The notes beneath the pieces are model-generated. The model had not been told where the DNA came from, searched no databases, and saw only the letters and a program-made list of their open reading frames with translations. Both the position numbers and the translations under genes were made by a program. From Sporopachydermia quercuum (taxonomy: Eukaryota): a stretch of DNA of 64,000 nucleotides. Shown here one piece after another: positions 17,303 to 45,915 of the stretch. Position 1 is the first letter of the stretch, and each line of letters opens with the position of its first letter. The stretch lies in the NCBI GenBank assembly GCA_001599295.1, contig BCGN01000009.1:558001-622000 (forward strand). The letters are read 5' to 3'.

Positions 17303-19510
17303 ATGCCATTGAACTCCCTAGTATATGATCCAGCATTTGACGCCCCTGGAACCGGTATTAAATCACTGAGCATTAACGACGAAACGATTACTTCCAGTAT
17401 GCAGGCACCAAACTCTCCTAACGGCAACTCTCCCATGTCAACTGCATCTATTTATATGAATGCTGACATTTCACGATCTACGTCAAATCTACTGGGAATG
17501 AGAAAGAAGGCCCAGAGGAGCACAATATCAGGCCTGGCTGCTAATGATGATTCTCTACCAGTCTCTCCTGTGAAATCATCATCTTCAGCTGCCAATCCAC
17601 AATCTTTGACTTCATCAACCAGAGACTCTGAAGAACCTGTGAAGAAGACCAAAGAAAGATCATCAACAGTGAGCAGATTATCCCGTTTTATCCCTGGGGC
17701 TTCTAAAGTGCATTTACGGTTAAACCATCAAGACGAACGAGAAAAGGAAAAAGAGAAGGAAGAGGAGAATGAAAAGGAGAAAGAGAGAAGTAAAACAGCA
17801 CATGTAAAGCAAGGAAGAGCATACGGCCGAAGGAGCAATTCTGTCTCCACCGCTGATCTTCCAGGACATATTTACCTTAGCGATAGACCAGTTTATGATG
17901 CGAGCTCGAGCTTGTCTCCTCATGGTACAGGAGCCAAAATAAGGGCTACTGGTGGTTCCTCTGCTTCATCTATCTCTTCGTTATCCTCAGGAACGAGTTC
18001 TGTTACTGCCCTAACAGCTTCGGATACTGCATCCACAACGAAGCACCAAAAAGTCTCCGGGGTGCATCATTCAGCAACCATTTCAGCTTCTAGTAAAGAG
18101 AAATACTTTGCCAGAAGGAACTCCGACGAGAAATCCCCTTCTTTAACTCCAACAGGATCCATTGCAACTTCTTCTTCTGGCGCAACTGCCACCTCCCGCA
18201 ACGGTTCTGACGTGCATAGAAGCGCCTCCATTTCGTCCTCAGGGTTAAGCAAAAACCATCATCAGTCGCGATTTATTGTCCTGGATAATGGCTCGCATAT
18301 CCACAACCTGAAAAACACAAAACGGCAAGAAAAGCTGAGCCATTTGATCAAAGACCTCATTGGCGGGAAACGAGCGCGAGACGAAGCAGTGTCCGCCGTG
18401 CCAGAGCTTCTCAAAGAAATCATGCCCCAAACCATAGGGAAGAGCCCCCAGGAGCCACAGAGTCCGCTTGGCACACCGCTTGGTACACCCATTGGCACAC
18501 AGGAGTCTTCAGGATCTGGTAGACCGGGGTCCAAACAACCACCACTCCTGATCTCCAATTTGATCAACAACGTGGAGTCTGGCAGCGAGCTCTTCTATGG
18601 GTCCTCCAACGTGAATCCTGCTACAGACGTCCGGCCTTTTTTTGAGAAATACGGCCGGTGCCAAGAAGTAGTTGGCCGGGGTGCCTTTGGCGTAGTACGC
18701 ATCTCCCATAAAATCGACCCAGCGTCCAACAAGGAAACTCTGTATGCTGTGAAAGAGTTCAAGAAGAGACCGCACGAGGACGAAAAGCTTTACTCCCGCA
18801 GACTTACCAGCGAGTTTTGTATCAGCTCAGGCCTCAAGCACGTCAATATCATCAACTGTTTAGACCTTTTGAAGGACGTGAAAGGCGAATACTGTGAAGT
18901 CATGGAGTTCTGCGACGGTGGGGACCTTTACTCTCTTGTTATATCCTATGGCAAACTGGAATATCTGGAGGCGGACTGTTTTTTTAAACAGATTATGACG
19001 GGGGTCAATTTCATGCATGAAATGGGCGTGAGTCATNGAGATCTAAAGCCGGAAAACCTGCTTCTGACGTCAAACGGAACTATCAAAATAACAGATTTCG
19101 GCAGTGCCGAATGCTTTAAAATGGCATGGGAACGGGAAGTACATTTGAGCCAAGGTCTGTGCGGGAGCTCGCCTTATATTGCGCCCGAGGAGTACGTGAG
19201 TAAAACGTTTGATCCCCGGCCATTGGATGTCTGGGCGTGCGGTATAATTTATATGGCCATGCGAACGGGGAGACAACTGTGGGAAACGGCAAACAGCAAC
19301 GACGAATTCTATCAGCATTATTTGAAGGGCCGGAAGAAGGAAAGTGGCTATGAGCCTATTGAGAGTCTGAAACGGGCGCGCTGTCGTAATGTGATTTATT
19401 CCATATTGGATCCTGTGCCAGAACGGAGGCTGACGGCAAAGCAGGTGTTGAACAGTGAATGGGGGCGAGAAATTAGAGTATGTGAAGCGGGATTGCATGG
19501 TTGTTATTAG
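17303..19510 (+). CDS. SAT4: Hal4/Sat4-family Ser/Thr kinase, 735 aa
   Basis: Kinase motifs GRGAFG, YAVKEF, SEFCISSGL, HxDLKPEN, DFG, GSSPYIAPEE, plus the Hal4-type HNLKNTKRQEKL segment. First ATG at 17303. Confidence 0.85.
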   Translation: MPLNSLVYDPAFDAPGTGIKSLSINDETITSSMQAPNSPNGNSPMSTASIYMNADISRSTSNLLGMRKKAQRSTISGLAANDDSLPVSPVKSSSSAANPQSLTSSTRDSEEPVKKTKERSSTVSRLSRFIPGASKVHLRLNHQDEREKEKEKEEENEKEKERSKTAHVKQGRAYGRRSNSVSTADLPGHIYLSDRPVYDASSSLSPHGTGAKIRATGGSSASSISSLSSGTSSVTALTASDTASTTKHQKVSGVHHSATISASSKEKYFARRNSDEKSPSLTPTGSIATSSSGATATSRNGSDVHRSASISSSGLSKNHHQSRFIVLDNGSHIHNLKNTKRQEKLSHLIKDLIGGKRARDEAVSAVPELLKEIMPQTIGKSPQEPQSPLGTPLGTPIGTQESSGSGRPGSKQPPLLISNLINNVESGSELFYGSSNVNPATDVRPFFEKYGRCQEVVGRGAFGVVRISHKIDPASNKETLYAVKEFKKRPHEDEKLYSRRLTSEFCISSGLKHVNIINCLDLLKDVKGEYCEVMEFCDGGDLYSLVISYGKLEYLEADCFFKQIMTGVNFMHEMGVSHXDLKPENLLLTSNGTIKITDFGSAECFKMAWEREVHLSQGLCGSSPYIAPEEYVSKTFDPRPLDVWACGIIYMAMRTGRQLWETANSNDEFYQHYLKGRKKESGYEPIESLKRARCRNVIYSILDPVPERRLTAKQVLNSEWGREIRVCEAGLHGCY

Positions 19511-34813: not shown

Positions 34814-35581
34814 TTACTTGTCTTCCTTCTTTTCTTCTTCTTTCGTTTCCTCCTCGACTTTTCCCTTAAGTTCTTCTTTTAATCCTTCTGCTTCTTCAGG
34901 TTCATCTTCTTCATTCACAAAATAATCAAGAGCACTAGTGAATGATTCTAAAGGTGAAATACCGACCTTACTAACAGCAATCTTACCATCTTTGATAATC
35001 CAGTGTGATCTCACAATACCTTTAGGATTTTTTTTTGCTCCAAGAGGGCCGATCAAATTGTAGTTAGGATCAGATAACAGAGAGTATGGCAACTTTTGCT
35101 TAGTTTGGAAGTTCTTTTGAGCTTTTGGCGAATCAGCAGATAATCCAAATACCTTTACATTCTTCTGTTCAAACTTCGGATAACTATCCCTAAATCCACA
35201 AGCTTGCTATATTAATTGTTAGTTAGTACATTAATCATTCTATATCAACATACTATCCAATCAATTGAGTTAGCAACATACCTTAGTACAACCAGGAGTA
35301 CTTGCTTTTGGATAAGCAAAAATTACAACTAACGGATTCTCCTTAACAACTTCAGTTAAGTTGACTTCATTCTCATCTTCATCTAACAATACCAAATCAG
35401 GTAAACTGTCACCTACAACCAATTTCGTTGTCTTCTTTCCAGCTCCAGTGTTTGAAGAGGAAGCTGAAGCTGAAGGTTTGGCTTTCTTAGCCGGTTTCGA
35501 TGGTTCGACATCTTCAACAGGTTCATCTGTTGTTTTCTTAGCTTGAGCGCTTATTCTTGTTGATCTTCGTAGTGTAGTCAT
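34814..35581 (-). CDS. DOT5: Peroxiredoxin Q/BCP Dot5, 2 exons, 230 aa
   Basis: Exons 35581-35282 and 35206-34814, intron GTATGT...TACTAAC...TAG. The junction restores YPKASTPGCTK|QACGFRD (CxxxxC). Basic LRRSTRI N-terminus. Confidence 0.93.
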
Positions 35582-36831
35582 TTTTGCTGATGATGCAAGG
35601 TTTTGTCTTTATGCTTTTGTTTGCGATGTGTTTCGTTCAGCCTCAACGGCAATTTTTCATCTATTCTCCTCTAGTTCGGTAATCAGTCAATTTATCAATT
35701 TATCAATAAATTAATCAGCAAAATCAGTTACTTTATAACATTTGTTAGTATTTATAATATGCATTCTCTGAAAAGATACACAACACGATATTTCATCTTC
35801 AACCTGTGGTCTTTGCTTTTATCAGTCGAAGTATCACATACATTGATTGTACTTATCGTCTTCTTTATAACGCAGAAACGATTAGCAATAATATCAATTG
35901 ATAGAAACTACTTCCTTTATCAATATTATATTTTGTTTTTTATTTAATGGTTTTCAACCTATAATATATATTTCTTACTGGAATTATTGTTCAATCATAT
36001 AATAATTATGAAATAATTGAGTGAATTAATAAATAAGTGAAAAAAAAGAAGAAAAAATCAGGAGAAAGCTAACAATTGGCACCCTTCAAGGAGCAAGTAT
36101 CGAGTACCCTCATACAAGTTCACTAACAACTATTCTTACATCCATCCATCACAGACTCTTTTTTTTAACCACAAGGACACTTCCTGTTTCTTCTTTCTCG
36201 TTTTCTTATTTTTGTGTATTATACGAATTACGCAATTTGAGGGTAAAAACACTTCTGCTATTTCATCATAACCGAACAAGGGCCTCTTTTCCTGTTTATT
36301 TTCAGCCAATCAGCAAACCAGTTAGCCGACCTATCAATCTATTTTTTTTATGATAACAGACTTTCTTACTTACCATTATGATCAATTTCTTTTTAATTGT
36401 ATTGACTTGAATATTTTATTTCTTCAAGGCCCAGCTTACGAAGAGACCTAATTATCGTAATGTACTAATACACTACAGAGTTCATAGTTCAAATAAGCTT
36501 CGTAAACGTTTTGCATTGGGAACAAGGAGATGTAGATAGTTTAGAGAGCATTTTACAAAGAGATTCAGCTCACTTTTAATATAATTGACTTGATAATGTT
36601 ATATTACACTGAGGAGTTAATGTAAGATTTATGTAGTTAAAAGGATCGTAAACTGAAGATATTTGTTGGCCCGTTAGACCTGGTGAGAGTGAAAACTCAA
36701 AAGGCGGGGAAGGGAACGAACCATACATGAGTTCTCACTACTATCAAAAGAGTTGCTTTTTCCGAGACTTTTCCTGTGCTTTACAAATCAACATCAGATT
36801 CATCTTACTACTTGATTCCTAAACAATAGTA

Positions 36832-36883: not shown

Positions 36884-37335
36884 GCTACTCTGACTGATTA
36901 AGTGAAAAGAAAGGAAAGAAAGGGCAGCTACTGTTTGGTTCTGTATGTCCAGTTGATTTGAAAAACAAACGCCAACAGAAATCAGCATTTCGGTAGCTGA
37001 TAATACCACTGCCTTTGCTTAATTGTTGGAAGATAATGCCATTTACCGAAGAATATTATTTGTTGATTATAATATCTATCCTGTTCTATTTAGTTCTGGG
37101 GTACGCCCCTCAGTTGTCTTGCTTCATCTCTTCAACAACCACCATTAGCAATATCTTTAAAATTTATCTACCACCTACTATCACTGATCACATATTATAC
37201 ATTCATTAGCTTAAATACTGTAGTATATTCTATCCAGAGAATATTATCTTGCCCTAATCCTAAAAGTTACCATTACATTTTTCCGTCATAATCTCATGCT
37301 AATGATTAAACTATCACTACAGTTCTCATCAACTC

Positions 37336-38278
37336 CTATAAATCTATTCGCAACGCAACCCAGAAATCCGATACTATCTTCCTCTTAGAATTCATCACAA
37401 CAGGGTTAAACCCAATCCAATGAAAATCGTTCATTATTCTTTTTAACTGGCTTACATTACGATCAACAAATACTAAAATACTTTCACAATGAAGAGAATC
37501 AATGGCAAGATCCAACAACGCGATAATCCTTTGCTTGAACCCGAACTTCCAATTAACTTTTGGTGTCTTATTCGATTTACCTGATATCTTCTCTTCCCCT
37601 TCAATCATTCCTTTAGTCAAGAATAGGTGAAGAACATCGTGTTCAATAAATCCTATCCATTCTTCATCACCATTATAATCAAACAGCTTGAAATAGCTCC
37701 TCAGCTCAAAGTTTGATGATCCGTGAATTCTCCTACAAAGAGAACTTGTTGATGTACTTGATTCCATTGAATATGATCTTACTTTTGATGATACTACCTC
37801 CTCTTTCTCTAGTCGATCAAAAAATGCATTTGATTCACTGAATATGCTAGTTTCAGCACTATAGCCAATGCTACTATAACTATTCTGTCGATACTCATTT
37901 ATGAATCCTTGCGTTGATTGACTTTCATAGCTGGAGATAACTTCCTCGCTATACTTAATACCTGTAATCGATATCCCTTGACTACAAAACCTCTCACATT
38001 TTATTGCCAGGTCTCTCGATGCCCTTTTTATATCGTCGATGTTGAGATGTGAATCTTTATGCATCATCGAAAAGGGTCTTTCAAGTTTCGTTTCAGGAGC
38101 GCCAATCTGCTGTTTGACCATCGCAACTGATATATTTGAACTCCTGAAAGGAGTCACTGTTATATGTGAAGCATGATGCTAATGTAGTCGATGAGGGTGA
38201 ATATTGTTTTACAGGATAGTTGTTGGTGAAATCTTCAACGTTATCATCACCGGTATTGTTTAGAAGTAAATCAGCCAT
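37336..38278 (-). CDS. OAZ1: Ornithine decarboxylase antizyme, made by +1 programmed ribosomal frameshift, about 313 aa
   Basis: ORF1 (38278-38093, 61 aa, LASC motif) ends TGG CGC TCC TGA. The +1 frame continues GAA ACG AAA... to the stop at 37336 and carries the antizyme domain FKQRIIALLDLAIDSLHCESILVFVDRN...FHWIGF. Confidence 0.93.
38092..38098 (-). other. +1 frameshift site UCC-UGA-A
   Basis: Plus-strand ttcagga (38092-38098) reads TCC TGA A on the minus strand, the canonical antizyme shift site. Confidence 0.92.
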
Positions 38279-40336
38279 TTTGATCTAGTTTTATAAAAAT
38301 ATTCTCTTTTTTCTTATTTCCCTATTATTNACTGCTGAGTGAGCTGCCGATATACGTCTTATTATGTGTTGTAAAACTCGATTGGATTGGAATTTACTAA
38401 CTTGATGATACAGTTTTGCTTTTGAGCAAAATATGATCTAGGTATTCAATTTTTCTTATGATTTCTTCATACGATCTATTTTGATATTTACTAGTTCACT
38501 ATTATCTATGCGAGTTGACTATCGTGCTTATCAATTCACTTACCGTTCATATCAGATTCTCCTGTTCTCGTTCACTGGTTTGTTGATGTAGAGAAGAAAA
38601 GAAACAAATGCCCACGAAGGTCTCGTGCGACCGAAAAGGATAAGGGTATTTTTCCCTTCTTTGGCGAGCGTTTTGTGTGAAGTTGGCGATGGGAAAGTAA
38701 GAGATTTAATAATGATTAGAGGTTAATTGAGTCAGATAACACAATTTGTTTTTTCTTTAATAAAAACACACCTTTCATCATAAATATATTAAATATAATA
38801 GGAAATGTTCCTATTTAAACAGCTATATTCGATGCAAAGATGAATAAATTGAGCTGAAATATGATAAGGTTTGGATAATATGCAATAAGATGTAGTTTAC
38901 GGCCATATTATTGCTCCTGCATGCTATCCTAGAATCTCTCATCTATTTGACATTTTAACAATCTTCATACGGAAAATACATCATAGCTTCTATAGCTAGT
39001 CAAATATGGGTAGTTTATCTCTTCTTATAGGTAAGTCGGCAAAACTAGAATAAATGAGACTTTTAGAAGTATGTCCTAGAATTTGAAAACTAAACCAAAA
39101 TGTGGTCCAATTGAAGCAAAAAGTCATTATGCAGCAATAATGCAAGATCTATACAGCTCTAAATAACTTTATTATGATAAGCATTATAAATGAGTTGAGT
39201 AGAAGAAGAGGAAGAAATGGCGATCTGATACATCCAGAATTGTAATCAAAAGGTTATATTGATGAATAATATCCAGATATTGATCTATCTATTGAGTGGA
39301 ATCATAAATGAGAATAACTGCTAGTTGATTTGGTTGATAGTTTGAGCGCGAAACCATTTAGTTAGCAGGAACTCAATCGATAAGAGTCGTTCATATAAAA
39401 GATAGATTTCTCATGAATTCATAAATTGAAAAGAAAACCTTCTGAGAACAAATACTAATAAATATAATCCGGTGTTAAATACTTTTTAAAAGGATTTATA
39501 TTAACATAGTCCGATTCTATATAATCCTTCCTCTACTCGATCTGGTCTCGCTACTTGCATACTGAGATGAGAAAGCTCAGTTTTTCATCTGCGTTCACCA
39601 TTTGGTGTAGATGCTTCAACTAACAACAGCACTCACAGCTTAAACTAGTATTTGATCCAACCAAATCGGCAGATCGTCATAGCATTTTCGAAATTCTTTG
39701 TTTTAATTCCCTATAACCGTCAGTCTACGAGCTCAGATTGCCTTGTGTTTTTGATGGTTGGCGATTTCTTCCAGCCACTTCATTTGGCTAATTATTGCTG
39801 AATCTTAAGGCAGCAGCAGTAACGATGGTAACCACAGGCGCAAATGGAGTCATATAAATTTATTCCAAATTAAGATGCGCAGTTTGCAAGTAAATTTATC
39901 GAACAGTTATTGTTCAAATGATATCTAGTGACAATCAAACAGCAGATCAGCTCAAGAAGAATTCTGCTTAGTGTGTATCCACCTTTGCATCAACTTACAT
40001 ACTACAACTTCTACCAAATATAGCAATTCATATGGCTCGTCGTATTCAACTAAACAATTATCTGATTTAATACCAATATTCTCCAAAATCTAACAGGAGT
40101 CCCTTAATTTCTCCTCGTACTCTTCCATCAATAAAACTAGCCAATTATCTCACTATTATACATCAACAACCCAACTCTTCTCATAAGTTTCCCATTTCAT
40201 ATTCAATTTACAATTTACAACCTACAGTCTCATTATAAGATACCTGTTCTATCCTGTATTTTTCTGTATTTTATAAATATTATCTGATACTACTGAAGGC
40301 CATCTCTATTTATTCAATTTTTACTATTCCATCGTA

Positions 40337-40372
40337 ATCTCGATCTCGATCTCGATCTCGATCTCAATCTCT
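40337..40372. repeat. (ATCTCG)4 plus two degenerate units
   Basis: Read directly in the OAZ1-ASH1 intergenic region. Confidence 0.85.
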
Positions 40373-41416
40373 ATATCTCCGCCCACCAATATCATCGTAT
40401 CATTCCTTCTTCTTCTATCATCATGAAACAAGAAGCCATCGGATAATTATCTAGAATAAAGCTTATTTCTATTATGCACACACTAGCATACATTATCCTG
40501 TCCTGATTTGTTCAGATCAAAGCTCTTTGAGGAAATTATCCATTAAACCTCAGAAAGGTAATGGCTGGTCATCCGATTGGGAACTTTTCTCTAAACTCTA
40601 TTAGCTTGTACTAACTCAATCAATCATCAAAACTTAATTCAGTCATTTTTTAACTTGATTGATCTCACCTGCCATCTTTAATTATGAGATGATTGAATTG
40701 GCCAGAAAACCAGCTAAATGGATCAAATAAGTATTGAATTGAATAAATAGAAAGATGGTTCTTGATTTCATTTTGAATTGGTTTTTACTTCTTTCTTTCA
40801 TTCTTTCTACTTGAAAGTTGTTTTGCTTTTTCTTTGTCTTGTTGGAATGAAGTATTTACTCGGGATCACATCATAGTAAAGTGAAGAGCAACAGGTTTGC
40901 ATAGCATTCTCAATCAAAGGAAGAAGAAATCGTATCAGATCAAATCAAACTAAGTCTAGCAACGGATAAAAGGCTCTCTGGCTTTCAAACAACAAAACAG
41001 ATTTCTACTTACACTGTTTTCAAATTCGCATTTAAGGAAATTCCAACTCATTGTCTTTCGTTTACTTCTCATCACCATTTCAAACAAGAAAGCAAGATCA
41101 ACGATTCGATCAAGCTTTGTTAGAAATTCCTAGTTCAGTCAATCAACTTACTTCATTCATTAATTGAACTAAGATATTCCAGTAAAATATTATCGGTGAC
41201 GTTCATACAACTTACAGAGCTCAGGGCCAAACCAACGTTAATTCACATAATTATACAAGAACTCACAACTGTTCTGGTTGAGTTATAGTTACCATTACTG
41301 AATTTTCTTCAGCTTAATAGATATCGTGGGGAGACGACTGGTGATTGAAATACTAATCACAAACATTTCCACTCGGTTCAATAAAGTTCTGTTCTACTGT
41401 TCCTATTTCTCATATT

Positions 41417-42949
41417 ATGTTCAGTTCTGAGAACGATAAGGCCCTTAACAAAACGAAATCAATGGCAACTGTATCTCTTCCTGCTTTGGCAACATCATTT
41501 ATGCCTTCATCTATGATCCTGTCAAGATCTAACCAACGTCATAATCAACATCATAATCATAATCATAACTATTCGCACACTGAGCAACGAAATCACCATC
41601 AAATAAATCAGTCTCATCCTGGATATAGCTTGAAGAAAAGTAATTCAGAGTCTCAATCTCAATCAACTAATTCTTCCCCACGTTTGATACCTTCTGAAGA
41701 AATGACCTCGATAGTCTCTTCGAATAAACAGCTAGCAACGTCTTTATTAGACGAAGACGCAGCTATTAATACCACAACCACTAAACCTGCTGTTATCTAT
41801 AATGAAAATGGGATTGTATCAACAAAGAAAAATTCCGAAATGGTAGAAGAACATGCAGTCGTTTCTGATAACGAACAAGATCCTAAACCGTTGGACGAAA
41901 AGCAGCAAAAATTGGAAAGTACCAAGTTATTCTGGCAAAACTGGACTTACATTTCAACTGTGAATCAAACTCGTCGTCCTATAAATAGGAATTTTGTTCC
42001 CCGTGAATCTAATACAAGATCCACTCCAAGCACATCTCCTTCTCCTAGTTCCTTACCAGGATCAGAAGATGCAGAGCTGGCACCTTTTTCAATGCTTTAC
42101 CCTGATACAGCTCCTGGTGATATATGGAGGCCAGAACTTGAAGCCTGGGCAATGAGATCTCATCCTGCCACTTTCAAGACTATCAAAGCTATTCCGGGAT
42201 CAACAGAAGACAAACCCGATCTTGGGAACTTCAAGAACTTGAAACGAAGAAGAACTGAAGAAACCAACAGTGAATATAGCTTTTCTCCTAGTGCCAAGAG
42301 ACAAGCATTGGGTTTGATAGATCCACTGAGAAGAAAGTCATGGACGGCTCATGACAAGAATAATACATCCAAGGTTATGTTTTTGCTTAATGAAGAAGAC
42401 AAGCAATCTGTAGGTAGCAATGGAGGTTCAAGCACTGTTAATATAGCGAATTCTGCAATAGATATGGGCAATTCTGGTAGCACTCCTCCTCATTCACCAA
42501 AGAGCAACGATGTTGATGTACACTATACACCTGGTAAGAACTATACGTATTACATTCCTTACCGGGCAAAGATCAATCGTCCTGGTAAAGCAGAAGAAGA
42601 CGGTTCAACGGAGACAACATCACCAAAGATGAAAACACCCAAATCTCCTAAATCTCCCAAATGTCCAAAATCTCCTTCAGGAAGAAAGTGTGCTTCTTGT
42701 GGTTCTGACCAATCGCCTTGTTGGAGACCATCTTGGTCCATAGCTGCTGGACAGTTATGTAACAGCTGTGGTCTTCGTTATAAGAAAACTGGTGCCAGAT
42801 GTATGAATGAGAAATGCTTAAAGATTCCCGCTAAAGGTGAATGGAGCCTAATGAATACAAGGGGGAAGGTGCTAATCAGAGATAATCATTATGGTTTGGT
42901 GTGCCTGCATTGTGGAAGTGAAGTTGAAGTTCAGCAGCGGAAACAATGA
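41417..42949 (+). CDS. ASH1: GATA-like zinc-finger transcription factor Ash1, 510 aa
   Basis: [16 protein letters not shown]...[16 protein letters not shown]...CLKIPAKGE is Ash1-type. Followed by SPE1 and LOT5, as in S. cerevisiae. Confidence 0.88.
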
Positions 42950-44478: not shown

Positions 44479-45915
44479 ATGGCTCCTCATATATCAGAAA
44501 TTAATAATGAAGTAGAATCATTTGATCATGGATCTCGATTTGATTATTTGATTAATGAGAAAGAGTTATCCTTAGGGCAAAAATCTCTGTTACCCTTACT
44601 TGAGAAATTTACTGTTGATCATAGCAGAATACAAGCTAAATCAAATGAAGAGATTGCCAAGGAGAATTATGCTAAGTTATTAATTGGAAATGCATTAGAA
44701 AATCACATTAAATGTATTGATGCAGAAACTTGCGACGCTTCTGAAGAAGATTCCTTTTTCGTTGCCGATTTGGGTGAAGTATACCGTCTTTTTCTTCGAT
44801 GGAAAAAGTTGTTACCAAGAGTTCAACCATTCTATGCAGTGAAATGCAACCCTGACCCAGTTGTATTGTCCTTACTTAGTTCTTTAGGTACTGGATTCGA
44901 TTGTGCTTCAAAGAACGAAATCGATCGCGTATTGAAACTTGGTGTGGATCCTACGAGAATCGTTTATGCCAACCCCTGTAAAGTTGCCAGTTATATCAGA
45001 TATGCTGCTTCAAAGCAAGTGTCATTAATGACCTTTGACAATGCTGATGAATTATACAAACTTAGAAAGTATTATCCTGATGCAAGATTATTGCTCAGAA
45101 TCTCAACCGATGACTCTGAAGCTCAATGTCAATTGTCTAACAAGTATGGTGCTTCTTTATATGCTGGTAGTCAACTTTTGGAACTTGCTAAAGCTCTTGA
45201 CTTATCAGTTGTTGGTTGCTCTTTCCATGTCGGCTCAGGAGCTACTTCTTTGGAACCATGGCAAAAAGCTATTCGCGATTGTCACGAGATCTTCGAATTA
45301 GGAAAGAGACTTGGTTTTGATATGAACCTATTGGATATTGGTGGAGGATTTGTTGCTTCCAGCTTTTCAGAGGTTGCACAGTTTGTAAGCCCCTTCCTTG
45401 ATCATTATTTCCCTGAAGAGTCCAATGTTTCTATTATTGCCGAGCCTGGTCGTTATTTTGTTGCTGATGGTTTCACAATGGCTTCTCATGTCATTGCTAA
45501 GCGTGACGTTGACGATGCGTCCAACAGAAGCATGATCTATCTCAACGATGGTGTGTATAAGAACTTGAATTGTATCTTATTTGATCATCAAGTTCCTGTA
45601 CCAAAAGTTCTAACCTACAACGGTGAATTCAAATACTTTGAATCTGAATCACTTCATGAACAAAACATGAATTCCACTGATGGCGTTGGCTCTTATACCT
45701 GTTCTATCTGGGGTCCAACCTGTGACGGTTTGGATTGTATTTCAAAATCTTGTAAATTGACTTATTCCTTACAAGCTGGAGATTGGATGTATTTCTCTAA
45801 TTTGGGTGCTTATACTTGTGCTGCTACCACACAGTTTAATGGTTTTGAAGGTGAATGTGGTATCATTTATGTCTGTTCTGAACCAGGCATTGCGAAAGAT
45901 TTGAATTTGAATTGA
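44479..45915 (+). CDS. SPE1: Ornithine decarboxylase, 478 aa
   Basis: PLP lysine FYAVKCN, FDCAS, FHVGSG, AEPGRYF, WGPTCDGLD, GAYT. First ATG at 44479. Confidence 0.97.
   Translation: MAPHISEINNEVESFDHGSRFDYLINEKELSLGQKSLLPLLEKFTVDHSRIQAKSNEEIAKENYAKLLIGNALENHIKCIDAETCDASEEDSFFVADLGEVYRLFLRWKKLLPRVQPFYAVKCNPDPVVLSLLSSLGTGFDCASKNEIDRVLKLGVDPTRIVYANPCKVASYIRYAASKQVSLMTFDNADELYKLRKYYPDARLLLRISTDDSEAQCQLSNKYGASLYAGSQLLELAKALDLSVVGCSFHVGSGATSLEPWQKAIRDCHEIFELGKRLGFDMNLLDIGGGFVASSFSEVAQFVSPFLDHYFPEESNVSIIAEPGRYFVADGFTMASHVIAKRDVDDASNRSMIYLNDGVYKNLNCILFDHQVPVPKVLTYNGEFKYFESESLHEQNMNSTDGVGSYTCSIWGPTCDGLDCISKSCKLTYSLQAGDWMYFSNLGAYTCAATTQFNGFEGECGIIYVCSEPGIAKDLNLN

What the first reader, a model, noticed from the sequence alone, without database searches (positions are those of the whole stretch)
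37336..38278. Antizyme gene hidden as two overlapping ORFs joined by a +1 frameshift
Seen: the 61-aa ORF1 ends ...GAT TGG CGC TCC TGA A, and the +1 frame runs 252 codons to an antizyme domain. The track's 273-aa ORF starts at a non-ATG codon. Known: antizymes use polyamine-stimulated +1 frameshifting, with UCC-UGA in mammals and S. pombe and GCG-UGA in S. cerevisiae. Inference: this yeast keeps the UCC-UGA site, and automated annotation would probably mis-model the gene.
Basis: partly seen in the sequence, partly recalled or inferred. Interest (0 to 1): 0.75.

Follow-up and report, generated by a model that had tools for sequence, protein, structure and literature searches.

The report
Yeast antizyme gene with +1 frameshift
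This is an ordinary but correctly spotted antizyme gene, the brake on polyamine synthesis, whose protein can only be made if the ribosome slips forward one base at a UCC-UGA site, as in most fungi and animals.

Summary
On the minus strand a 61-codon ATG ORF (38278..38093) ends GAT TGG CGC TCC TGA A, and the +1 frame then runs 252 codons to TAG at 37336. The +1 frame carries a Pfam ODC_AZ domain: 49 bits against a cut-off of 24.2. Of 14 hits in an exhaustive HMMER search, 13 are antizymes. The predicted fold matches human antizyme best.

ORF1 has coding-type codon usage in its own frame. TGA is a working stop here, ending 9 of 15 large ORFs. No splice signals lie near the junction. Of 96 ORFs of 50 codons or more, only this one has a +1 frame open for 100 codons or more after its stop.

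The best reading is a canonical antizyme decoded by programmed +1 frameshifting at UCC-UGA, with a module-A-like UGG-CGC just upstream. Polyamine control and ODC binding are inferred from the family, not shown.

This is a new member of a well-described kind (PMC1874602), not a new mechanism. Three details are worth noting. The ODC gene lies only 6.2 kb away. The base after the stop is A. No 3' RNA stimulator was found.

The parts
38093..38278 (-). ORF1 of the antizyme gene: 61 codons from ATG 38278 (context AAAATGG), with stop TGA at 38095..38093
   Evidence: The codon-usage log-likelihood ratio is +0.161 per codon in its own frame, against -0.304 and -0.813 in the other two. Calibration windows of 61 codons from 15 large ORFs gave 0.221 +/- 0.108 in frame (122 of 122 above 0) and -0.401 +/- 0.168 off frame (1 of 122 above 0). 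An in-frame TAG lies 3 codons upstream of the ATG.
38093..38098 (-). Frameshift site TCC TGA (UCC-UGA): Ser codon in the P site, stop codon in the A site. The T at 38095 is the base skipped in a +1 shift.
   Evidence: Read directly from the sequence. UCC-UGA is the commonest antizyme shift site (PMC1874602, section 9). TGA ends 9 of 15 large ORFs in the window, so it is a working stop here.
38099..38105 (-). Module-A-like 7 nt abutting the shift site: T TGG CGC (Trp-Arg at codons -3 and -2)
   Evidence: PMC4505036 describes module A as 6-7 nt abutting the shift site. Coprinopsis has codon -4 GGG, -2 CGU and the peptide end ...WRF (the peptide is in PMC1874602, section 11). The window shares UGG-CG, which is 5 of 7 bases against that reconstruction. 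CGC is the rarest Arg codon here, 15 of 358 Arg codons, which fits a constraint at the nucleotide level.
37336..38094 (-). ORF2 as decoded after the shift: 252 codons from GAA 38094..38092 to Leu 37341..37339, then stop TAG 37338..37336
   Evidence: P0001 residues 62-313. Codon-usage log-likelihood ratio +0.134 per codon in this frame, -0.415 and -0.689 in the others.
37342..37698 (-). ODC_AZ domain (P0001 residues 194-312)
   Evidence: Pfam PF02100: 49.1 bits against a cut-off of 24.2, E 6e-13, profile positions 3-113 of 114. The model gives pLDDT 82-95 over most of the domain. The best PDB fold match is 4zgy_B, human antizyme: E 1.4e-5, TM 0.61 on the target. A profile of A1 against PDB sequences hits 4 sequences, all antizyme.
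37981..38040 (-). Predicted helix early in ORF2 (P0001 residues 80-99) carrying the motif A-S-R-D-L-A-I-K-C-E-R-F
   Evidence: Helix 28-47 of the 261-aa ORF, pLDDT blocks 68-82. C-E-R is shared by 5 of 13 homologues (P0003, P0005, P0007, P0008, P0014), and a sixth (P0006) has C-D-R. Its function is unknown.
38119..38121 (-). ATG in the ORF2 frame, 9 codons upstream of the shift site. This is the start an automatic annotator would choose, giving a 261-aa model.
   Evidence: On this strand it is the fourth ATG from ORF1's own start at 38278, which is counted first (38278, 38247, 38174, 38121).
44479..45915 (+). Ornithine decarboxylase gene, the presumed target of the antizyme, 6.2 kb away
   Evidence: Pfam Orn_Arg_deC_N 278 bits and Orn_DAP_Arg_deC 82 bits. 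The best named relatives are fungal ODCs at 49-57% identity.

Best explanation
This is the ornithine decarboxylase antizyme gene of an ascomycete yeast.

Ribosomes start at ATG 38278 and translate the 61-codon ORF1. With tRNA-Ser on UCC in the P site and UGA in the A site, a fraction of them move one base forward instead of terminating. They read GAA (Glu) next and continue for 252 codons. The product is a 313-residue protein whose C-terminal third is the antizyme domain.

By analogy with every studied antizyme, the shift frequency rises with polyamine level. The protein then binds ODC monomers, inactivates them and sends them to the proteasome, which closes a negative feedback loop.

- **Shown here:** the two-ORF anatomy, the shift site, the module-A-like context, coding signal in both frames, and family membership by sequence and by predicted fold.
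- **Inferred:** that the shift happens, that polyamines stimulate it, and that the protein acts on the ODC encoded 6.2 kb away.
For: - **Anatomy.** ORF1 ends TGG CGC TCC TGA A, and the +1 frame is open for 252 codons. This is the only such case among 96 ORFs of 50 codons or more in the window.
- **Family by sequence.** Pfam ODC_AZ scores 49 bits against a cut-off of 24.2. An exhaustive HMMER search of 1.84 billion representatives gave 14 hits at E <= 0.001. Of these, 13 carry ODC_AZ; the 14th, P0002, is a repetitive 1175-aa chance hit. A profile of A1 against PDB sequences hit 4 of 4 antizymes.
- **Family by fold.** The fold search puts 4zgy_B (antizyme) first, with 5bwa_B and 4zgz_D also listed.
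- **ORF1 is coding.** ORF1 scores as coding in frame 0 and ORF2 in frame +1. ORF1's ATG is the first after an in-frame stop and has A at -3.
- **Stop codon.** TGA is a normal stop here, ending 9 of 15 large ORFs.
- **No intron.** No donor or branch signals lie between 38300 and 37300, although 10 GTAWGT..TACTAAC..AG candidates occur elsewhere in the window.
- **Site context.** Codon -2 is CGC, the rarest Arg codon (15 of 358). The first +1 codon is GAA, the commonest Glu codon (390 of 552). Trp-Arg at -3/-2 matches the mushroom antizyme ORF1 end ...WRF and module A (PMC1874602 section 11; PMC4505036).
- **Binding to ODC.** The complex prediction of the C-terminal domain with the neighbouring ODC gave weak support. 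The score was 0.44 against 0.00 for the best of 3 controls. That mark was reached by 51 of 78 solved complexes and 2 of 108 mismatched pairs. At 0.60 or under, however, it was reached by only 5 of those 78 and by all 4 mismatches that passed (of 180). The runs agree in at least 52% of contacts, and the partner's pLDDT is at least 65. Human ODC-antizyme complexes are solved, so this pass may reflect likeness only.
Against: - No expression data of any kind: no cDNA, no ribosome profiling, no peptide.
- No DNA from related fungi was available, so conservation of ORF1 and of the site could not be tested.
- The base after the stop is A. PMC1874602 section 10 calls A the most efficient termination context in S. 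cerevisiae and reports a nearly 4-fold loss of frameshifting for C-to-A there. This species' own preference is unknown: 5 of 16 stops in the window, counting ORF2's own, are followed by A, which is too few to judge.
- No UCCCU element lies 3 nt after the stop.
- No convincing 3' structure: the 63-nt fold has z -0.8 (39 of 200 shuffles as good) and the 118-nt fold z -2.0 (5 of 200). There is no Rfam match above noise.
- ORF2 has its own in-frame ATGs at 38121, 38067 and 38064.
- The homologues are distant, at 23-33% identity in A1. The word-index search found none.
Confidence: 0.9

Rival explanations
1. ORF2 is translated on its own from ATG 38121 (or 38067/38064), from a shorter transcript or by leaky scanning. 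ORF1 would then be only an upstream ORF that dampens expression, and no frameshift would be needed.
For: ATG 38121 opens a 261-aa ORF holding the whole conserved part of the protein, including the helix motif and the ODC_AZ domain. Three database homologues are modelled this way.
Against: Scanning ribosomes meet three ATGs first (38278 in a good context, then 38247 and 38174). ORF1 has coding-type codon usage, which a mere uORF need not have. It ends on the canonical UCC-UGA with a module-A-like Trp-Arg context. The ORF2-only models in databases are the known annotation error (PMC1874602 section 7).
Confidence: 0.05
2. The frame change is not biological. It is either a one-base sequencing or assembly error in a continuous gene, or a recent frameshift mutation in a decaying pseudogene.
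For: The window is a draft-quality sequence with 45 isolated N, one of them at 38330, 52 nt upstream of ORF1.
Against: An error would have to create, by accident, exactly the site that antizymes use, at the place where they use it. Both ORFs keep coding-type codon usage. ORF2 is intact over 252 codons and has the residues at all five invariant columns of A1 (L205, D220, W235, G237, F238). No N lies between 37336 and 38278.
Confidence: 0.03
3. The two ORFs are joined by splicing: a short intron removes the stop codon and resets the frame.
For: This genome appears to have introns: 10 GTAWGT..TACTAAC..AG candidates occur in the window. PMC1874602 notes that the Cryptococcus antizyme gene has introns.
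Against: No GTRNGT donor and no TACTAAC branch site lie between 38300 and 37300. The nearest GTAAGT is at 38543, upstream of ORF1. PMC1874602 section 7 describes exactly this kind of invented splice as an annotation error contradicted by more than 10 ESTs.
Confidence: 0.01
4. Same gene and same site, but the ribosome reaches the ORF2 frame by a -2 shift rather than +1. This would add one residue at the junction: ...DWRS-P-ETKLER.
For: PMC1874602 section 9 reports that the mammalian UCC-UGA cassette gives more -2 than +1 shifting in S. cerevisiae, and the converse in S. pombe. Here a -2 shift would read CCU (Pro) and then GAA (sequence).
Against: That observation concerns a foreign cassette in a foreign host. 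Native antizyme genes are described as +1 (PMC1874602 abstract and section 9).
Confidence: 0.05

Closest known systems
Fungal ODC antizymes with a UCC-UGA +1 frameshift site (Ascomycota), as catalogued by Ivanov and Atkins 2007 (PMC1874602)
   Same: A short ORF1 of 61 codons (reported range 17-86) and ORF2 in the +1 frame with 252 codons (reported range 114-443). The shift site is UCC-UGA, and the C-terminal domain is ODC_AZ.
   Different: The base after the stop is A, not the poor-termination base the paper finds in most antizymes. There is no UCCCU element and no detectable 3' structure. The sequence is distant from every homologue found, at 23-33% identity.
Saccharomyces cerevisiae OAZ1 and close relatives
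   Same: A budding-yeast antizyme with +1 frameshifting at a stop codon. A long product of about 300 residues (the S. cerevisiae length is recalled, not checked here).
   Different: S. cerevisiae relatives use GCG-UGA, GCG-UAG or CCG-UGA, tied to rare or absent tRNAs, with C after the stop (PMC1874602). The window keeps the presumed ancestral UCC-UGA, followed by A.
Agaricomycete antizymes (Coprinopsis cinerea), PMC4505036
   Same: Trp-Arg at codons -3/-2 (UGG CGN) abutting the shift codon, which is module A.
   Different: Mushrooms shift on UUU-UGA. They also have a conserved nascent-peptide stimulator and two stacked 3' stem-loops. The window's ORF1 end (...SCDGQTADWRS) shares only W-R with the mushroom peptide, and no 3' stem-loops stand out.
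Human antizyme 1 in complex with ODC (PDB 4zgy, 5bwa)
   Same: The predicted fold of the C-terminal domain matches it best: TM 0.61-0.62 on the target. The profile aligns the K..ALLDLA segment to the rat antizyme chain 1zo0_A at positions 60-108.
   Different: Only 11-13% identity in the structural alignment. A single-sequence search of PDB found nothing. The vertebrate pseudoknot family is not matched in Rfam.

Membership tests
ODC antizyme (Pfam PF02100, ODC_AZ) | C-terminal antizyme domain scoring above the curated threshold | tested here: met
   49.1 bits against a cut-off of 24.2, covering profile positions 3-113 of 114.
ODC antizyme (Pfam PF02100, ODC_AZ) | Nearest relatives are antizymes | tested here: met
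   13 of 14 exhaustive-search hits carry ODC_AZ; the 14th is a repetitive chance hit. A profile search of PDB sequences hit 4 of 4 antizymes.
ODC antizyme (Pfam PF02100, ODC_AZ) | Fold of the solved antizyme C-terminal domain | tested here: met
   The model has pLDDT 82-95 over most of residues 140-261 of the 261-aa ORF. The top PDB match is 4zgy_B (E 1.4e-5, TM 0.61 on the target), with 5bwa_B at 0.62 and 4zgz_D at 0.73. The remaining matches are GNAT-type acetyltransferases at TM 0.34-0.46.
Antizyme-type programmed +1 frameshift gene | Short ORF1 overlapping a long ORF2 in the +1 frame | tested here: met
   61 + 252 codons. Unique among the 96 ORFs in the window.
Antizyme-type programmed +1 frameshift gene | Shift-prone sense codon directly before the ORF1 stop (UCC-UGA or a listed variant) | tested here: met
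   TCC TGA at 38098..38093. UCC is listed for Ascomycota in Table 1 of PMC1874602.
Antizyme-type programmed +1 frameshift gene | Module A: 6-7 conserved nucleotides abutting the shift site | tested here: inconclusive
   The window has U UGG CGC. Against the Coprinopsis codons quoted in PMC4505036 and the ...WRF peptide of PMC1874602, 5 of 7 bases agree. The consensus figure itself could not be read. The supplementary PDFs of PMC1874602 yielded only species labels.
Antizyme-type programmed +1 frameshift gene | Poor termination context (base after the ORF1 stop) | tested here: not met
   The base is A. In S. cerevisiae, A is the most efficient context (PMC1874602 section 10). This species' own preference is unknown, and the paper calls the rule only 'mostly valid'.
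Antizyme-type programmed +1 frameshift gene | 3' stimulator (pseudoknot, stem-loops or UCCCU). This is branch-specific, not universal. | tested here: not met
   No UCCCU 3 nt after the stop. Fold z-scores are -0.8 for 63 nt and -2.0 for 118 nt. No Rfam hit above noise. Without related DNA, covariation could not be tested.
Antizyme-type programmed +1 frameshift gene | Frameshifting occurs and is stimulated by polyamines | not testable with these tools
   Needs a reporter assay, ribosome profiling or mass spectrometry.
ODC antizyme (function) | Binds ODC monomers and targets them for degradation | not testable with these tools
   The only evidence is a weak-support complex prediction: score 0.44 against 0.00 for the best of 3 controls. 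That mark was reached by 51 of 78 solved complexes and 2 of 108 mismatched pairs, but at 0.60 or under by only 5 of those 78 and by all 4 mismatches that passed (of 180). The runs agree in at least 52% of contacts, and the partner's pLDDT is at least 65. A like complex is solved, so the pass may come from memory.

The most novel reading that the evidence does not exclude
In this lineage the antizyme shift works without the usual helpers. It has an efficient-looking stop context (UGA-A), no UCCCU and no 3' structure. The 5' side, meaning module A plus perhaps the ORF1 nascent peptide, would then carry both the stimulation and the polyamine sensing on its own. In addition, the sensor gene and its target ODC gene sit 6.2 kb apart as a linked polyamine-homeostasis pair, an arrangement I did not find described. 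One search (listing only) showed nothing on it. S. cerevisiae and S. pombe keep the two genes on different chromosomes by my recollection.
Probability: 0.15. Interest if true: 0.5.

Novelty: new member of a known kind. Interest (0 to 1): 0.3.

Why it matters
For annotation, the correct product is a 313-residue protein joined at 38096|38094. It is not the 261-aa ATG model or the 273-aa GTG model, and pipelines that forbid frameshifts will truncate it or invent an intron.

For biology it adds one more, rather divergent, ascomycete example that keeps the presumed ancestral UCC-UGA site and the Trp-Arg module-A context. It lacks the 3' elements and the poor stop context seen elsewhere. That makes it a compact natural test case for what the minimal polyamine-sensing frameshift cassette needs.

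The close linkage to the ODC gene is a curiosity worth checking in related genomes.

Tried and rejected
- **Word-index homologue search** with the joined protein: 516 candidates, none at E <= 0.001. This reflects divergence, not absence, because the exhaustive search found 13 antizymes.
- **Single-sequence search of PDB:** 0 hits at E <= 1. The profile search succeeded.
The source names and accessions of the homologues P0003-P0015 stay unknown.
- **Rfam** at E <= 10 over 37000..38700: 6 matches, all far below their gathering scores (snoRNA and sRNA models), none an antizyme element.
- **3' RNA folds** were not distinguishable from shuffles.
- **Intron scan** of the gene was negative. The GTAAGT at 38543, after ATG AAC G, cannot be joined in frame to ORF1, because the ORF1 frame has a TAG 3 codons before its ATG.
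- **tRNA scan** of the window: 0 genes.
- **Supplements of PMC1874602:** 3 PDFs gave only species labels as text, and file 4 was not searched. The nucleotide alignments of Figure S1 could not be compared.
- **Literature search for ODC-antizyme linkage** (OAZ1, SPE1, synteny, yeast): 38 papers held at least 3 of the terms. Of the 10 listed, none addresses it by title or by the start of its abstract, and none was read.
- **CUG-Ser code.** I considered it because the organism is an unplaced yeast. The one in-frame CTG I looked at in ORF2 (R-D-L-A) sits at a column where most of the homologues that cover it have Leu. That is a single case and I did not pursue it.
- **Not run.** A search for ORF1 homologues alone.

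Full report
**What is in the sequence.**

On the minus strand, ATG 38278 opens a 61-codon ORF that ends ...GAT TGG CGC TCC TGA at 38093, followed by A. The ATG has A at -3 and is the first ATG after an in-frame TAG three codons upstream.

One base forward, the frame is open from GAA 38094..38092 for 252 codons to TAG 37338..37336. Reading TGAA as a single step gives a 313-residue product with the junction ...TADWRS-ETKLERPF....

With ATG starts, the same frame gives a 261-aa ORF from 38121.

**Is it more than chance?**

- Among 96 ATG ORFs of 50 codons or more in all six frames of the window, two end TCC-TGA. The second, 18509..18709 (-), is antisense inside a kinase ORF.
- After the stop of these 96 ORFs, the +1 frame stays open for a median of 11.5 codons (95th percentile 57.5). 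ORF1 is the only one with 100 or more, at 252.
- I built a codon-usage model from 15 large ORFs of the window. ORF1 scores +0.161 per codon in its own frame, and -0.304 and -0.813 in the other two.
- ORF2 scores +0.134 in the +1 frame.
- For calibration, 61-codon windows of real genes give 0.221 +/- 0.108 in frame (122 of 122 above zero) and -0.401 +/- 0.168 off frame (1 of 122 above zero). These windows were part of the training set, so the separation is somewhat flattering.
- TGA ends 9 of the 15 large ORFs, so it is an ordinary stop here.

**What the protein is.**

- *Pfam.* The joined protein and the 261-aa ORF both match ODC_AZ (PF02100) at 49-50 bits against a curated cut-off of 24.2, over profile positions 3-113 of 114. 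ORF1 alone matches nothing.
- *Word-index search.* It found no relative, so the protein is divergent.
- *Exhaustive search.* A HMMER search of 1.84 billion representatives gave 14 hits at E <= 0.001. Thirteen carry ODC_AZ. The other, P0002, is a repetitive 1175-aa protein with 14 matched stretches and is a chance hit.
- *Alignment.* In alignment A1 the window protein is 23-33% identical to the 13 and has the family's C-terminal signatures (K-x-x-I-I-A-L-L-D-L-A, D-R, W-I-G-F, S-D-x-W).
- *PDB by profile.* A profile of A1 hits four PDB sequences, all antizymes.
- *Structure model.* An AlphaFold2 model built on A1 is confident only in parts: mean pLDDT is 63, with 82-95 over most of residues 140-261 and below 50 over residues 49-138.
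- *Fold search.* The best PDB match is human antizyme in its ODC complex, 4zgy_B (E 1.4e-5, TM 0.61 on the target). 5bwa_B (0.62) and 4zgz_D (0.73) are also listed. The remaining matches are GNAT-type acetyltransferases with lower TM.

**The frameshift site and its surroundings.**

UCC-UGA is the commonest antizyme site and is listed for Ascomycota. S. cerevisiae relatives use GCG- or CCG-UGA instead (PMC1874602, passages of section 9 and Table 1).

*Upstream.* The seven bases before the shift codon read U UGG CGC, which encode Trp-Arg.

- PMC4505036 (passages and section 29) describes module A as six to seven bases abutting the shift site. It quotes Coprinopsis codons GGG at -4 and CGU at -2. 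It also reports that changing CGU to CGA or AGA lowers frameshifting.
- PMC1874602 section 11 gives the mushroom ORF1 end as ...P(G/E)WRF.
- The window therefore shares UGG-CG with the mushroom module.
- CGC is the rarest Arg codon in this genome sample (15 of 358, against 185 AGA), which fits a constraint on the bases rather than on the amino acid.
- The first +1 codon, GAA, is the commonest Glu codon (390 of 552).
- Three homologues (P0005, P0008, P0011) read G-[V/I]-P-E at the aligned place. The window's ORF2 frame reads G-A-P-E there. Back-translated, this is what xGG-xGU-xCC-UGA looks like in the ORF2 frame. I take it as indirect evidence that those genes have the same kind of site and were modelled without the shift. 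This is an inference, because I could not see their DNA.

*Downstream.* The usual helpers are not evident.

- The base after the stop is A. [quoted passage not shown]
- There is no UCCCU three bases after the stop.
- The 63-nt and 118-nt downstream folds have z-scores of -0.8 and -2.0 (39 and 5 of 200 shuffles fold as well).
- Rfam gives only noise.
- Without DNA from relatives, covariation could not be tested.

**Rivals.**

- *Intron.* There is no GTRNGT donor and no TACTAAC between 38300 and 37300. The window has 10 canonical GTAWGT..TACTAAC..AG candidates elsewhere, so this yeast's introns appear to be of the recognisable kind.
- *Independent start.* ATG 38121 is the fourth ATG from ORF1's start (38278 counted first) and lies inside an ORF that itself looks coding.
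- *Sequencing error or pseudogene.* The window has 45 isolated N, the nearest at 38330, so it is a draft. An error would have to produce the canonical site by accident, and both ORFs look intact and coding.
- *-2 shift.* This would give the same frame with an extra Pro. PMC1874602 reports it for a mammalian cassette in S. cerevisiae. Only a junction peptide can settle it.

**Context.**

The window is from an ascomycete at about 36% G+C. Pfam finds ordinary eukaryotic genes on its large ORFs, among them Cbf5/dyskerin-type, calnexin-type, a DnaJ protein, a kinase and a GATA-finger protein.

The 478-aa ORF at 44479..45915 (+) is an ornithine decarboxylase. It scores 278 bits on Orn_Arg_deC_N. Its best named relatives are fungal ODCs of Lipomyces, Myxozyma, Dipodascopsis, Trichomonascus and many Pezizomycotina, at 49-57% identity. 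The single best match, at 58%, carries no name. No close relative of this organism is in that collection. The regulator and its presumed target are thus 6.2 kb apart, with the GATA-finger ORF between them.

A complex prediction of the antizyme C-terminal domain with this ODC gave weak support.

- The score was 0.44, against 0.00 for the best of three controls.
- That mark was reached by 51 of 78 solved complexes and 2 of 108 mismatched pairs.
- At 0.60 or under, it was reached by only 5 of those 78 and by all 4 mismatches that passed (of 180).
- The runs agree in at least 52% of contacts, and the partner's pLDDT is at least 65.
- Human ODC-antizyme complexes are solved, so this shows likeness at most.

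**Verdict.**

This is an antizyme gene that needs a +1 shift at UCC-UGA. It is a new, divergent member of a kind described in close to 300 cases (PMC1874602), so the interest is modest. It lies mainly in correct annotation, in the unusually bare 3' side of the site, and in the linkage to ODC. Polyamine stimulation, the actual shift and ODC targeting are inferred from the family and remain to be shown.

**What stayed unchecked.**

- DNA of related fungi.
- The nucleotide alignments in the supplements of PMC1874602, which are held as pictures.
- ORF1 homologues, for which no separate search was run.

Noticed in passing
window 44479..45915 (+): A full ornithine decarboxylase gene: 478 aa, both PLP-decarboxylase domains, up to 58% identity to fungal ODCs. 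It lies 6.2 kb from the antizyme gene, with a GATA-finger ORF (41417..42949) between them. Regulator and target are linked. One literature search turned up nothing on such linkage (listing only).
   Followed up: partly
window 38092..38095 (-): The base after the ORF1 stop is A (UGA-A), and no UCCCU follows. PMC1874602 section 10 says most antizymes have a poor-termination base there and that A is the most efficient context in S. cerevisiae. Stops in the window are too few (16, counting ORF2's own) to learn this species' preference.
   Followed up: partly
window 37981..38040 (-): A predicted helix early in ORF2 with the motif A-S-R-D-L-A-I-K-C-E-R-F. C-E-R is shared by 5 of 13 fungal homologues and C-D-R by a sixth. 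PMC1874602 section 10 states that no antizyme-wide conservation is apparent just after the shift site, so this may be a fungal-branch feature. Its function is unknown.
   Followed up: partly
whole window; nearest at 38330: 45 isolated N are scattered through the 64 kb, including one pair at adjacent positions. One lies 52 nt upstream of the ORF1 ATG and none lies inside the gene. They look like masked or ambiguous single positions rather than gaps.
   Followed up: no
window 38470 and 38550 (-): Two 4-codon upstream ORFs (ATG AAG AAA TCA TAA and ATG AAC GGT AAG TGA) lie 190-270 nt upstream of ORF1. The second overlaps a GTAAGT. Whether they lie in the transcript is unknown.
   Followed up: no
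window 35207..35581 (-): A 103-aa ORF matches only the first 44 of 124 positions of AhpC-TSA. It ends where a candidate intron (GTAWGT..TACTAAC..AG, 35207..35281) begins, and a second candidate lies at 35731..35841. This is probably a peroxiredoxin gene split by introns.
   Followed up: partly
window 18509..18709 (-): This is the only other ORF of 50 codons or more that ends TCC-TGA-A, with 82 open codons in the +1 frame. It lies antisense inside the protein kinase ORF 17303..19510 and is most likely chance.
   Followed up: no
window 38295..41416: About 3 kb without any ATG ORF of 90 aa or more separates the antizyme gene from the divergently oriented GATA-finger ORF. That is a long intergenic stretch for this window.
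   Followed up: no
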